A DNA stretch of 63,485 bases, filler included, from Collodictyon triciliatum (Eukaryota): assembly GCA_043381765.1 (NCBI GenBank). It is 5 parts of 5 records of this genome, joined end to end, with 100 filler letters (N's around TTAATTAATTAA, not from the genome) between each part and the next. Parts side by side here need not be neighbours in the genome. Positions count along the whole stretch, not along the records: positions 38,161 to 50,779 come from JBHJMP010002138.1; 4 more parts are not named here. One strand, 5' to 3'. Shown here piece by piece: positions 47,610 through 50,222 of this stretch (the first letter of the stretch is position 1; the number at the start of each line of letters is the position of its first letter). Below the pieces are notes generated by a model that was given only the letters and a program-made list of their open reading frames with translations, had not been told where the DNA came from and ran no database searches. The translations under genes were made by a program, and so were the position numbers.

Positions 47610-50222
47610 ATGGCAAGGAGATTTGGCAACACAGTAGATTTGCATTTAACAGAGAAGCATCTTGTTAGCTTACAGCACGATGAATCTCAGGTTTTTTTTC
47701 TTATTAATTACATACTTTCACAAATGAATGGAACTTTGAAAAAAATGAAACCAAACTTGCAACTGATTGACAAAGCTATAGAGAATCATTCATATTTTCA
47801 TAAGCAGATGCTAAGGTATCAAAATCTTTCATTTGCACAATAAGTAACGCCAGTTTAAGCCAAAGATACCACCAGCGCAAATATCATAACAAATAAAAGA
47901 AAAGCTGATGATGCGTAATATTTTATCCGTAGCAGTTCAAACGAGGAAGAATCAAGGTCTGTCATTAGTGAAAGCGAGTCGACTTCACGAACAATTACCG
48001 ACTCTGAAAGTGTATCAAAGTCATCTTCTTCATATCCAACCTCACTGACTACGACATCGGATTCAGTGCCGAGCGCCCTGAAGTCCCATACACATGGGTA
48101 AATTTTTTCCAGTTTCTTAATTCAAGAAAAAATAATAAATGTTTCTTTTTAAATTTGCCCAACAGAATAAAATGTTTAGATATATGATATGTATTTGAAT
48201 CAAACAAACAATATTTAACAGAAGCTTAGCGGCATCCAGGAAGAAGAGAGTCATATCTTCTTGGTCTCCTCTGAGGCAGTATATACTGAAGGTACTCTTG
48301 TACTAAAATTTTCTGTCAAATGTGTTTTCATCTTTTACCAGAAGTCGACGGACGGTTTTCTTCAATTCAGAAACTCTTTACAAAGATTGTAGAGTCGAAG
48401 TCGTTTAATAACTCTATCTTGGCTGTTATCCTGCTGAATACTGTCGTCGTAGCCATTCAAATAGACAAATACATTTATATGAGAGCAGGTCTTTTTTTAA
48501 AATAATAATAATAATAATCATCCAGTACTTTAAATCTGGTTCTAACTAGAATCTAATACCTTTCAGGCTGGTACTTGACATTTATTGACAATATATTCTT
48601 GGGAATTTACATAAGCGAATTTCTTATGAAAGCGTTTGTATTCCGTTTAAATTACTTTAACAGTGGTTGGAACACATTCGGTAATTTCACAATCAAATCA
48701 TTGCGAACTAAATAAAAAAAAAAGAAAAAAAAACAACGTATGTGTGTATATGAGGATTACTCATATTTCCAGGGTCAAGGCAAATATTCCACTAGATTTT
48801 TATTTTTAATTAAACGGGCACCGTATTTAGATTTCTTTATAGTTTGCACCAGCTTCGTTGATTGGTTAAAGTTTGGAATCTTGTCTTCGGGGTCTTTCAA
48901 CCCAAAAATATTTCGTTTGTTAAGAGTTTTTCGGGCCATCCGAGCAATTCGTGGGCTACGTGCTTTGAGGGCGGTCAGCTTTTTGCAATGTTTGCAGATT
49001 ATCGTAAGCACACTCCTGAAGTCGATTCCTGCGCTAGGGAGCATCGCAATGTTGCTATTTTTGATCATGTGTATCCTCACCACAAACTCTGAAAATCGAT
49101 GGAGTCTATGTTGTTTTCAATAATGCAAGATTTTGAATATTTTCGAAAATGCTTTTTATTTCCCTAAACTTTAACCATACGGCGATAAAAAAAACCTTCA
49201 TATATTTTTGTATACCTGACCAAAAAAAAACAGTCATTTTCGCCATTATTGGGCGCATTCTTTATGGGGATGTGGACCCTGTTAGGTTTGGCTCCATGGA
49301 GACGTCCATCTTTACCCTATTTATTATTCTTTCACTGGATGATTGGTTTGAGGTGGTGATTCAAAAAGAATGTTGTAAAATCGGCGCATTAAATTAAATG
49401 ACTGTTTAAACATCATTCCCTATTTCCTTCTCTATTTGCTTTTCAATCCTTGCTTATATATATTTGAATTACACAGGCTTATCGGGATAACGCTGAAAAA
49501 GATTCATCCATCGTAAGGGTTTTATTTTAATTACATATCAAATTTTGCATCGAACACACTGATGATTTCGAACGTTAATTTTATATATTTGCAGGTGGTT
49601 TACTTGATTGCTTTCATCATCATGGAAACTTTCATTTTCATCAATCTTTTTATTGCTGTTATTGTAAATAATCTCCAAGCTTCTCAGTCCCACCTCAAAA
49701 AAAAGGCCAAAAAAGAAAAGGCCCAAGAGGTAAAATTGTTTTATTATTAGATTAAAAATGGAAAAAAAGGAGAACAGCTCAATTTTTTTCTCTAAAGCTT
49801 GTGTTATCACATGAGCAGATTGAAAATGAGGAAAAGACAAACCGTGCGCAGCTTGCAACAAAAAAAAACCTTACAGTCGGGAGCAGCAAGCCAAAAACAA
49901 TCGACGATGTTTACACAGAAGAAGGAATTCCGCACAAGTAAAATTCTAAAACGCATCCTCTTTTTTTTCTTTTTTCTTATAGAAAAAAAAAAAGAAAGAA
50001 ATATTCGATCCCTTATATTTCGAAAAATCTCGCCAGCAAGGCTGTTGCTTCGATATAAGTGCTTCAAAATAATGTAGGGAGAAGCAACTGATGGGACACT
50101 ACTTGATGCTTTTGGCCTCATTGGAAAACAACGCCGATACCTACGAGAACCAGCACAAAGTTCTCGATGGCCTTGTTGATGTGATGAGAAGCAACGACGA
50201 GGATGGGCTTGTGTTCATATAA
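47610..50222 (+). CDS. CATSPER1: CatSper1-like single-domain 6TM voltage-gated Ca2+ channel subunit
   Basis: S1 FNNSILAVILLNT; S2-S3 YISEFLMK..YFNSGWNTFDFFIV; S4 RLLRVFRAIRAIRGLRALR; pore FTLFIILSLDDW; S6 FIFINLFIAVIVNNLQ; C-terminal EKQLMGHYLMLLASLENN..YENQHKVLDGLVD. Start codon uncertain. Confidence 0.82.

What the first reader, a model, noticed from the sequence alone, without database searches (positions are those of the whole stretch)
47610..50222. CatSper1-like sperm-type calcium channel in an apparently non-animal genome
Seen: one 6TM domain, seven regularly spaced S4 arginines, filter SLDDW and a C-terminal coil HYLMLLASLENN..YENQHKVLDGLVD. Known: xLDDW is the CatSper1 filter (CatSper2-4 have DHW/DGW; bacterial Nav has TLESW). 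The tail resembles the CatSper1 C-terminus as I recall it. CatSper is flagellum-specific with a patchy distribution outside animals. The N-terminus here is Ser-rich, without the His-rich region of mammalian CatSper1. Inference: the organism has a flagellated stage and probably a full CatSper complex, possibly in a lineage where it is unreported.
Basis: partly seen in the sequence, partly recalled or inferred. Interest (0 to 1): 0.75.

Follow-up and report, generated by a model that had tools for sequence, protein, structure and literature searches.

The report
CatSper1-type flagellar calcium channel gene
This is an intact gene for a CatSper1-type calcium channel, the kind that steers animal sperm tails, sitting in the genome of a free-living flagellate related to Diphylleia, which adds one more deep eukaryotic lineage to a channel family already known outside animals.

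Summary
Window 47808-50222 (+) carries an intact 11-exon, all GT-AG gene for a 424-aa single-repeat 6TM channel. Its S4 has one Lys and seven Arg at every third position, its pore reads SLDDW, and it ends in a conserved helix.

It is a CatSper1 orthologue. The closest full-length relative, P0002 (67% identical end to end), matches mouse CatSper1 in one stretch reaching the last residues (194.5 bits). Bacterial Nav chains score 117 or less, and no other CatSper chain is in the 60 rows shown. A profile of ten protist tails finds only mouse CatSper1's C-terminus among 177,635 PDB sequences (E 5.3e-5). In a tree, 39 eukaryote rows including bat CatSper1 separate from 12 BacNav rows.

The organism is not an animal. 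Two independent genes point to Diphylleia rotans (CRuMs) as the closest sampled relative.

CatSper outside animals is already published for apusomonads, fungi and Carpediemonas, so this is a new member of a known kind. The "full complex" inference could not be tested, because no genome is held. No tree with CatSper2-4 or EukCat was possible.

The parts
47610..47807 (+). It is probably 5' UTR or an unsupported N-terminal extension.
   Evidence: It is in frame and has no stop before ATG 47808. Both complete Diphylleia rotans ORFs start at the equivalent of 47808.
47808..47815 (+). Start codon ATG and the end of exon 1 (M-L-S...), with a GT donor.
   Evidence: The N-terminus MLSSSNEEES aligns with residue 1 of P0002.
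47933..48097 (+). Exon 2: Ser/Thr-rich cytoplasmic N-terminus with no His-rich tract.
   Evidence: 50% Ser+Thr and 2 His in the first 58 residues. The segment is shared with both D. rotans paralogues but not with other lineages.
48222..48291 (+). Exon 3: pre-S1 segment (SLAASRKKRVISSWSPLRQYILK).
   Evidence: The frame was chosen by alignment to P0002 and P0004. AG/GT borders.
48386..48488 (+). Exon 4: S1.
   Evidence: The intron after it lies at the same position as in the D. rotans b gene (P0003).
48567..48680 (+). Exon 5: S2 with the acidic/basic pair in YISEFLMK.
   Evidence: Pfam Ion_trans 2.7e-4. E and K are at least 90% conserved in alignment A2. The following intron is shared with D. 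rotans b.
48831..49070 (+). Exon 6: S3 (Asp), S4 voltage sensor (48905-48970, K+7R), S4-S5 linker and S5.
   Evidence: Pfam Ion_trans 4.8e-8. The best single-repeat PDB hit is CatSper1: 41.1 bits (9ubw_A) and 37.8 bits (7eeb_A); no other chain named cation channel sperm-associated protein is among the 51 sequences listed at E<=0.01. Coordinates.
49234..49352 (+). Exon 7: end of S5, pore helix and selectivity filter SLDDW (49332-49346).
   Evidence: T-x-D-x-W is at least 90% conserved in A2, and bat CatSper1 has TLDDW at the same columns.
49477..49512 (+). Exon 8: pore-to-S6 loop.
   Evidence: AG/GT borders and in frame; aligned with homologues.
49595..49729 (+). Exon 9: S6 (NLFIAVIVNNL) and a basic post-S6 stretch.
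   Evidence: Pfam Ion_trans 1.8e-4.
49798..49937 (+). Exon 10: variable cytoplasmic linker.
   Evidence: Poorly conserved. The equivalent region of the P0002 model has pLDDT below 50 at residues 338-350.
50078..50222 (+). Exon 11: conserved CatSper1-type C-terminal helix (50082-50183), acidic end and TAA stop.
   Evidence: The protist tail profile hits only mouse CatSper1 residues 909-952 of 955, E 5.3e-5. AlphaFold helix 364-401 in P0002, with ten-residue block means of pLDDT 70-94 over residues 351-400.

Best explanation
The locus is an intact, intron-rich gene for the CatSper1 orthologue of a non-animal flagellate whose closest sampled relative is Diphylleia rotans (CRuMs). CatSper1 is one pore-forming alpha subunit of the flagellar Ca2+ channel. 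The protein is a single 6TM repeat. Shown from sequence: S1-S4 form a voltage sensor with eight basic residues in S4 and the S2 Glu/Lys and S3 Asp counter-charges. S5-P-S6 form a quarter of a pore whose filter Asp (first D of SLDDW) would contribute to a ring of four carboxylates. Inferred from the CatSper family: the ring makes the channel Ca2+-selective. The channel sits in the flagellar membrane. It opens on depolarisation and/or cytoplasmic alkalinisation and changes the flagellar beat through Ca2+ entry. The conserved C-terminal helix bundles four subunits, as proposed for CatSper and BacNav C-terminal coiled coils.
For: Gene intactness: 11 exons, 10 GT-AG introns of 68-163 bp, and a 424-aa ORF aligned end to end with P0002 (67%) and P0004 (57.5%). 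CatSper1 assignment: P0002 against PDB gives mouse CatSper1 7eeb_A 194.5 bits in one stretch, 70-408 to 608-952 of 955. The best bacterial single-repeat channel scores 117.3. Four-repeat Cav/Nav chains reach up to 267.6 only as sums of 4-5 stretches. No other CatSper chain is in the 60 rows shown, so each scores below 109.4 bits. Window exon 6 alone gives CatSper1 41.1 bits against 24.1 for the best single Cav3.1 repeat. Foldseek's first hit of the P0002 model is 7eeb_A at 38% identity; NavAb is at 30-34%. The tail profile built from 10 protist sequences, with no animal sequence, hits only 7eeb_A at E 5.3e-5; the next hit has E 0.49. Named relatives include NCBI 'CatSper1' of Carpediemonas, Aduncisulcus, Siphonaria and a bat. 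Tree: 39 eukaryote rows versus 12 BacNav rows at 100 SH-aLRT, and the window groups with the two D. rotans rows at 97. Taxon: the three best of 63 hits of an unrelated PH-domain exon among 1.84 billion representatives are all D. rotans. Function of the family: IUPHAR guide passages (PMC4718209); coiled-coil tetramerisation proposal (10.1101/459487 passage citing Lobley 2003; PMC3791462 passage).
Against: No CatSper2-4 or EukCat sequences were available, so orthology to CatSper1 rather than to the other alpha subunits rests on PDB ranking and the tail, not on a joint tree. The window's last exon alone found no CatSper chain in PDB at E<=10; only the profile did. Fold comparison does not discriminate: VIA-align ranks 7eeb chain C (22% identity, Z 17.9) level with NavAb (Z 17.3). 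The ESM Atlas feature search of P0002 listed chordate CatSper3 and CatSper2 clusters (0.96, 0.95) and showed no CatSper1 cluster. However, genuine bat CatSper1 scores 0.97, 0.96 and 0.95 against CatSper1, 3 and 2, so that tool does not separate the paralogues. The filter starts with Ser where at least 90% of relatives have Thr. Expression, localisation, ion selectivity and partners are all untested. The PDB and fold tests used the Diphylleia orthologue as a proxy, because a spliced window protein could not be submitted.
Confidence: 0.8

Rival explanations
1. It is a CatSper1-type subunit that works without the animal-style complex. It would act as a homotetramer, or as a heteromer of CatSper1 paralogues, like a BacNav/CavAb-type channel that carries a C-terminal bundle.
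For: D. rotans expresses two CatSper1-type paralogues (P0002, P0004). The family is about as similar in sequence and fold to NavAb (30-34% identity) as to CatSper1 (38%). Nothing else CatSper-like was found in the window ORFs scanned.
Against: [quoted passage not shown] The window is only 63 kb, and eukaryotic partners need not be linked.
Confidence: 0.2
2. It is a eukaryotic BacNav-like (EukCat-type) single-repeat channel that only resembles CatSper1 by convergence in the filter.
For: Bacterial Nav proteins are the next-best single-repeat matches (117 bits, about 200 bits to the family profile).
Against: The split from the 12 BacNav rows has 100 SH-aLRT. There is a 77-bit gap between CatSper1 and the best BacNav. 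The C-terminal helix matches only CatSper1 in PDB. The family profile scores its members at 223 bits or more and BacNav at 206 or less.
Confidence: 0.05
3. The contig is animal DNA or a contaminant, so the channel is an ordinary animal CatSper1.
For: The GGT exon gave no protist signal at all.
Against: The only animal-named row, bat CatSper1, is 30% identical, against 67% for D. rotans. A second, unrelated gene has its three best hits in D. rotans. The Ser-rich N-terminus and three intron positions are shared with D. rotans genes.
Confidence: 0.03
4. It is a silent or decaying gene copy.
For: No expression data were available for this organism.
Against: The ORF is complete, all 10 introns have GT-AG borders, the conserved residues of the voltage sensor, filter and tail are intact, and exon GC is well above intron GC.
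Confidence: 0.05

Closest known systems
CatSper1 (cation channel sperm-associated protein 1), alpha subunit of the CatSpermasome (PDB 7EEB chain A, mouse)
   Same: Single 6TM repeat. S4 has seven or eight basic residues at every third position. The filter is x-L-D-D-W. S6 has the conserved Asn. The C-terminal helix is aligned up to the last residues. It lacks a His-rich N-terminus, as the sea-urchin channel does (passage of 10.1101/459487).
   Different: Only 30% identity to bat CatSper1 over 419 columns. The N-terminus is short and Ser/Thr-rich instead of a several-hundred-residue His-rich one. The filter has Ser in place of Thr. Partners are unknown. The cell is a permanently flagellated protist, not a sperm.
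CatSper1-type proteins of protists and zoosporic fungi (Thecamonas trahens P0010, Allomyces macrogynus P0027, Carpediemonas membranifera P0023, chytrids)
   Same: Same family profile (223-630 bits), the same tail motif and similar length.
   Different: They belong to different supergroups. The window gene shares a Ser-rich N-terminal segment only with Diphylleia. CRuMs are not mentioned together with CatSper in any paper of the held library.
Bacterial voltage-gated Na+ channels (NavAb, NavMs, NaChBac) and the engineered Ca2+-selective CavAb
   Same: Same fold (Z 16-17, rmsd 3.0-3.5 A over about 220 residues, 31-34% identity). Both are tetramers of single repeats. Both have a C-terminal helical bundle (PMC3791462 passage).
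   Different: They form a separate clade (100 SH-aLRT). Their tails do not match the tail profile at E<=10.
CatSper2, CatSper3, CatSper4
   Same: Same complex in animals and the same fold. Chain C of 7EEB, which by recall is CatSper3, aligns at Z 17.9. They are the nearest ESM Atlas clusters.
   Different: Only 22% identity for chain C, against 38% for chain A. None is among the 60 best PDB sequence matches of P0002. None is hit by the tail profile.

Membership tests
CatSper1 | Single-repeat 6TM voltage-gated-type cation channel (Ion_trans) | tested here: met
   Pfam PF00520 on three exons in profile order 35-71, 73-140 and 207-239. The AlphaFold model of the orthologue shows S1-S6 helices at pLDDT above 90.
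CatSper1 | Highly charged S4 with basic residues at every third position | tested here: met
   K plus 7 R at offsets 0, 3..., 21 at 48905-48970. Bat CatSper1 has the same register.
CatSper1 | Pore motif [T/S]-x-D-x-W with the selectivity Asp | tested here: met
   SLDDW at 49332-49346. T, D and W are at least 90% conserved in 37 family members.
CatSper1 | Closer to CatSper1 than to CatSper2-4, BacNav or Cav/Nav repeats | tested here: met
   Tested by PDB ranking of the orthologue P0002 (194.5 bits, against 117 or less for BacNav and below 109.4 for any other CatSper chain) and of window exon 6. Foldseek's first hit is 7eeb_A at 38% identity. A joint tree with CatSper2-4 was not possible.
CatSper1 | CatSper1-type C-terminal helix | tested here: met
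   The protist-only tail profile hits 7eeb_A residues 909-952 of 955 at E 5.3e-5. It is the only one of 177,635 PDB sequences below E 0.49.
CatSper1 | His-rich N-terminal domain (mammalian feature, not general) | tested here: not met
   2 His in the first 58 residues. This feature is not defining: sea-urchin CatSper lacks it yet is pH-activated (passage of 10.1101/459487).
CatSper1 | Co-occurrence with CatSper2-4 and beta/gamma/delta/epsilon in the same genome | not testable with these tools
   No whole genome is held. None was seen among the window ORFs scanned.
CatSper1 | Flagellar localisation and an alkalinisation- or voltage-activated Ca2+ current | not testable with these tools
   This needs experiments. 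No RNA run was available.
BacNav | Groups with bacterial single-repeat Nav channels | tested here: not met
   The 12 BacNav rows form one side of a 100 SH-aLRT branch and the window lies on the other side.
EukCat (eukaryotic BacNav-like channels) | Groups with EukCatA-C | not tested
   No labelled EukCat sequence could be obtained.

The most novel reading that the evidence does not exclude
[quoted passage not shown] This window adds a genomic, intron-bearing copy from the CRuMs lineage. The same searches found full-length orthologues in transcriptomes or genomes labelled Gefionella, Fabomonas, Rhodelphis, Ancoracysta, Nonionella, Chromosphaera, Carpediemonas, Aduncisulcus and an unclassified anaerobe. 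By recall, the first five are a malawimonad, an ancyromonad, a sister of red algae, a provoran and a foraminifer. The 45-residue tail, conserved from these protists to mouse, would then be an ancient assembly or partner-binding element.
Probability: 0.55. Interest if true: 0.5.

Novelty: new member of a known kind. Interest (0 to 1): 0.35.

Why it matters
CatSper is the most complex known ion channel and has never been reconstituted in heterologous cells (IUPHAR guide passage). Short, His-free orthologues from culturable flagellates are candidate material for expression and structural work. A genomic copy in a CRuMs-related lineage, read together with the malawimonad, ancyromonad, metamonad and Rhodelphis hits, pushes the origin of the flagellar Ca2+ channel towards the root of eukaryotes. 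That bears on how the first cilia were steered. For annotating this genome, it is an ordinary conserved gene.

Tried and rejected
- Whole-genome search for other subunits: no genome is held.
- RNA evidence: no RNA holder was listed.
- Rfam on the window: 0 matches, so there is no rRNA for taxonomy.
- Taxon from the GGT exon: 91 hits, the best at 54% identity. The rows that carry an organism name are mostly bacterial metagenome bins plus two yeasts, so the result is uninformative.
- Earlier scan notes: none for this genome, none for the word CatSper, none by sequence.
- Last exon alone against PDB: only two chance-level hits (E 1.1 and 1.9) and no CatSper chain. It was replaced by the tail profile.
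- First gene models were rejected. They used the 47610 start, a wrong acceptor at 48230 and a wrong frame and start for the S1 exon. They were corrected from the Diphylleia proteins.
- ESM Atlas as a paralogue test: rejected after the bat CatSper1 control.
- VIA-align as a paralogue test: the rows are tied.
- Cai et al. 2014 could not be read. What is said about it comes from citing passages and from recall.
- ORF 34702-35034 (-) looked like a cyclase fragment by eye, but Pfam gave nothing.
- Complex prediction was not used, because a tetramer pass would follow from likeness to solved channels.
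Full report
WHAT IS THERE

The window is eukaryotic, AT-rich (31-46% GC in 2-kb windows) and intron-rich. The proteins found with the largest exon showed that this model was wrong at its 5' end.

The corrected model has 11 exons: 47808-47815, 47933-48097, 48222-48291, 48386-48488, 48567-48680, 48831-49070, 49234-49352, 49477-49512, 49595-49729, 49798-49937 and 50078-50222. It has ten GT-AG introns of 68-163 bp and encodes 424 residues. It aligns from residue 1 to 421 with P0002 (67% identity) and from 2 to 422 with P0004 (57.5%). 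Exons are 41.5% GC and introns 28.2%.

The frame from 47610 stays open into 47808, so an extended N-terminus cannot be excluded. However, both complete orthologous ORFs start at the equivalent of 47808.

All are present.
- S4 (48905-48970) has Lys plus seven Arg at every third residue.
- The filter SLDDW lies at 49332-49346.
- The tail KQLMGHYLMLLASLENNADTYENQHKVLDGLVDV lies at 50082-50183.
- The first 58 residues are half Ser/Thr and contain two His.
- Pfam Ion_trans matches three of the eight exon translations scanned, in the order expected for one repeat.
- In the 37-sequence family alignment, the S2 Glu and Lys, the S3 Asp, five to seven S4 Arg, the filter T-x-D-x-W and the S6 Asn are invariant or at least 90% conserved. 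The window keeps all of them except Thr, which is Ser.

WHICH FAMILY

Sequence against solved structures:
- Window exon 6 alone scores 41.1 and 37.8 bits against the two CatSper1 chains. The best single Cav3.1 repeat scores 24.1 and the best bacterial channel 26.8. No other chain named cation channel sperm-associated protein is among the 51 sequences at E<=0.01.
- The spliced window protein could not be submitted to the remote tools, so I used its closest full-length relative, P0002.
- P0002 matches mouse CatSper1 (7eeb_A) in one stretch, 70-408 to 608-952 of 955, at 194.5 bits.
- Four-repeat Cav/Nav chains score higher (up to 267.6), but only as sums of four or five stretches.
- Bacterial channels reach 117.3 bits.
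- No other CatSper chain appears in the 60 rows shown of 176 matches, so each scores below 109.4.

Family profile:
- A profile of ten protist relatives found 156 proteins.
- Scores run from 630 down to 223 bits for eukaryote proteins. These include NCBI-named CatSper1 of Carpediemonas, Aduncisulcus, Siphonaria and the bat Pipistrellus, plus Thecamonas, Allomyces, Catenaria and chytrids.
- From 206 bits downward the rows that carry a name are bacterial 'voltage-gated sodium channel' or 'ion transporter' proteins, and most unnamed ones have bacterial-channel lengths.

Tree:
- It has 51 rows and 391 columns, built with IQ-TREE (LG+C20 PMSF, quick search, SH-aLRT only).
- It splits 12 BacNav rows from 39 eukaryote rows at 100.
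- Bat CatSper1 lies inside the eukaryote side on a long branch (2.36), and its exact place is unresolved.
- Left out of the tree were the fragments P0001, P0003 and P0037 and all but 12 of the bacterial rows; the near-copies P0039 and P0040 were both kept in.

THE TAIL

The window's last exon alone found nothing in PDB. A MAFFT alignment showed the same motif in bat CatSper1. A profile of ten tails from the window and nine protist proteins, with no animal sequence, then hit exactly one solved chain convincingly. That chain is mouse CatSper1, residues 909-952 of 955, at E 5.3e-5. The next hit has E 0.49 and is unrelated, and no other CatSper chain appears at E<=10.

AlphaFold2 on P0002 with the 37-row alignment (mean pLDDT 79) makes this segment a single helix, 364-401.

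FOLD AND EMBEDDING SEARCHES

- Foldseek's first hit is 7eeb_A (38% identity, E 6e-12), closely followed by NavAb (30-34%).
- VIA-align puts another chain of the same entry (chain C, 22% identity, Z 17.9) level with NavAb (Z 17.3). The fold therefore does not separate the families.
- The ESM Atlas listed chordate CatSper3 and CatSper2 clusters for P0002. As a control, true bat CatSper1 scored 0.97, 0.96 and 0.95 against CatSper1, 3 and 2 clusters. That result supports 'CatSper family' but says nothing on the paralogue.

WHOSE GENOME

- Source accessions show that P0002 and P0004 are two paralogues from Diphylleia rotans.
- The window groups with them at 97 SH-aLRT, but the order among the three is unresolved.
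- The Ser-rich N-terminal segment is shared only by these three.
- P0003 is a contig translation of the D. rotans b gene with unspliced inserts. It shows inserts at three positions that coincide with window introns: after MRA|G, after GWNTF, and after LFLI(L/M).
- As an independent gene, I searched a PH-domain exon (44306-44887, minus strand) against 1.84 billion representatives. There were 63 hits. The best three (39%, 33% and 26% identity; E 2.9e-50, 1.7e-35 and 2.2e-14) are all D. rotans. The next hits, at E about 1e-11 to 1e-12, are Pigoraptor and Rhodelphis.

The identities are low, so the organism is not D. rotans itself. CRuMs are thinly sampled, so 'closest sampled relative' is what is shown. 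Membership of Diphyllatea is an inference that I put at about 0.7. That the organism is not an animal I put above 0.9. Diphylleia are biflagellates (abstract of PMC11603278, listing), which fits a flagellar channel.

HOW IT LIKELY WORKS

Shown from sequence: a complete voltage-sensor charge set, a filter with an Asp at the selectivity position, and a C-terminal amphipathic helix.

Inferred from the family:
- CatSper is a Ca2+-selective, weakly voltage-dependent, alkalinisation-activated channel of the flagellar membrane, formed by four alpha subunits plus auxiliary subunits (IUPHAR guide passages).
- The alpha subunits are proposed to tetramerise through C-terminal coiled coils (passage of 10.1101/459487 citing Lobley 2003). 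The same heptad motif is noted in bacterial channels and CatSper (PMC3791462 passage).
- The missing His-rich N-terminus is not an obstacle. Sea-urchin CatSper lacks it and is still pH-activated.
- Whether this protist builds a heterotetramer with CatSper2-4 or uses CatSper1-type subunits alone is open.

WHAT IS KNOWN

- The CatSper-zeta paper searched Thecamonas, Allomyces, Aurantiochytrium and Salpingoeca (PMC5362262 passage).
- A 2021 review treats CatSper as a post-LECA invention of apusozoans, animals and fungi (PMC7935092 passage).
- A 2026 survey lists CATSPER1/2 among proteins specific to flagellated fungi (PMC13358043 passages).
- Searches pairing CatSper with Diphylleia, Collodictyon, CRuMs, Mantamonas or Rigifila, with malawimonads, ancyromonads or Rhodelphis, and with protist/supergroup terms found no paper in the held library that reports it there. 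Cai et al. 2014 itself is not held.

The window gene is thus a new member of a known kind. The wider list of hits suggests a much older origin than the review states. That rests on transcriptome labels, which can include prey or contaminants.

THE REST OF THE WINDOW

Pfam on 16 ORFs and on 114 further ORFs covered 129 of the 181 non-repetitive ORFs of at least 75 residues listed. The 52 not scanned are mostly alternative frames over scanned ORFs, the channel locus itself and repeats. These scans found a beta-carbonic anhydrase, a RabGAP-TBC protein, gamma-glutamyltranspeptidase, two protein kinases, the PH-domain protein and an AAA/RFC-type ATPase. They found no second Ion_trans gene and no CatSper auxiliary domain.

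VERDICT

The 'full complex' was not testable, and novelty is modest.

Noticed in passing
window 31504-32329 (+): The conserved exon of a gamma-glutamyltranspeptidase gene has its best matches (at most 54% identity) in unnamed metagenome proteins. The rows that carry an organism name are bacterial bins (e.g. Candidatus Binatia) and two yeasts, and no protist appears among the 91 hits. This could be a bacterial-type GGT (possible old transfer) or an effect of the word-based candidate selection.
   Followed up: partly
window 43243-45756 (-): Multi-exon gene with PH domains. The 194-residue exon has specific relatives only in two proteins of about 2400 residues from Diphylleia rotans (39% and 33% identity). 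Apart from one further D. rotans protein at E 2.2e-14, everything else has E of 5e-12 or weaker. This looks like a lineage-restricted giant PH-domain protein.
   Followed up: partly
P0002, P0004, P0003 (not in window): Diphylleia rotans has two CatSper1-type paralogues, 67% and 57.5% identical to the window protein. The order of the three in the tree is unresolved, so the window gene may be orthologous to either copy or be a third one.
   Followed up: partly
P0039, P0040, P0041 (not in window): Three unnamed proteins of 380-392 residues come from large ENA contigs (0.4-1.2 Mb). They form a very long-branched clade (2.31) inside the eukaryote CatSper1-type side. P0041, the only one placed in the alignment, keeps TLDDW and the tail motif. 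Their organism is unknown.
   Followed up: no
window 6357-7450 (+); 15640-16549 (+); 30500-30688 (-); 32768-33508 (-); 35930-36703 (-); 51084-53124 (-): Neighbouring genes by Pfam or by eye: beta-carbonic anhydrase, RabGAP-TBC, a GET3-like P-loop exon (by eye only, no Pfam hit), two protein kinases, and an RFC-type AAA ATPase with a long acidic/Ser-rich N-terminal extension before the PWVEKYRP motif.
   Followed up: partly
window 28585-29250; 29865-30770; 50580-51100; 57880-58430: Long microsatellite-like tracts read as poly-Y/poly-N or K/E/R-rich repeats in several frames. They are often interrupted by runs of N (715 N in all). One of them sits inside or beside the GET3-like gene.
   Followed up: no
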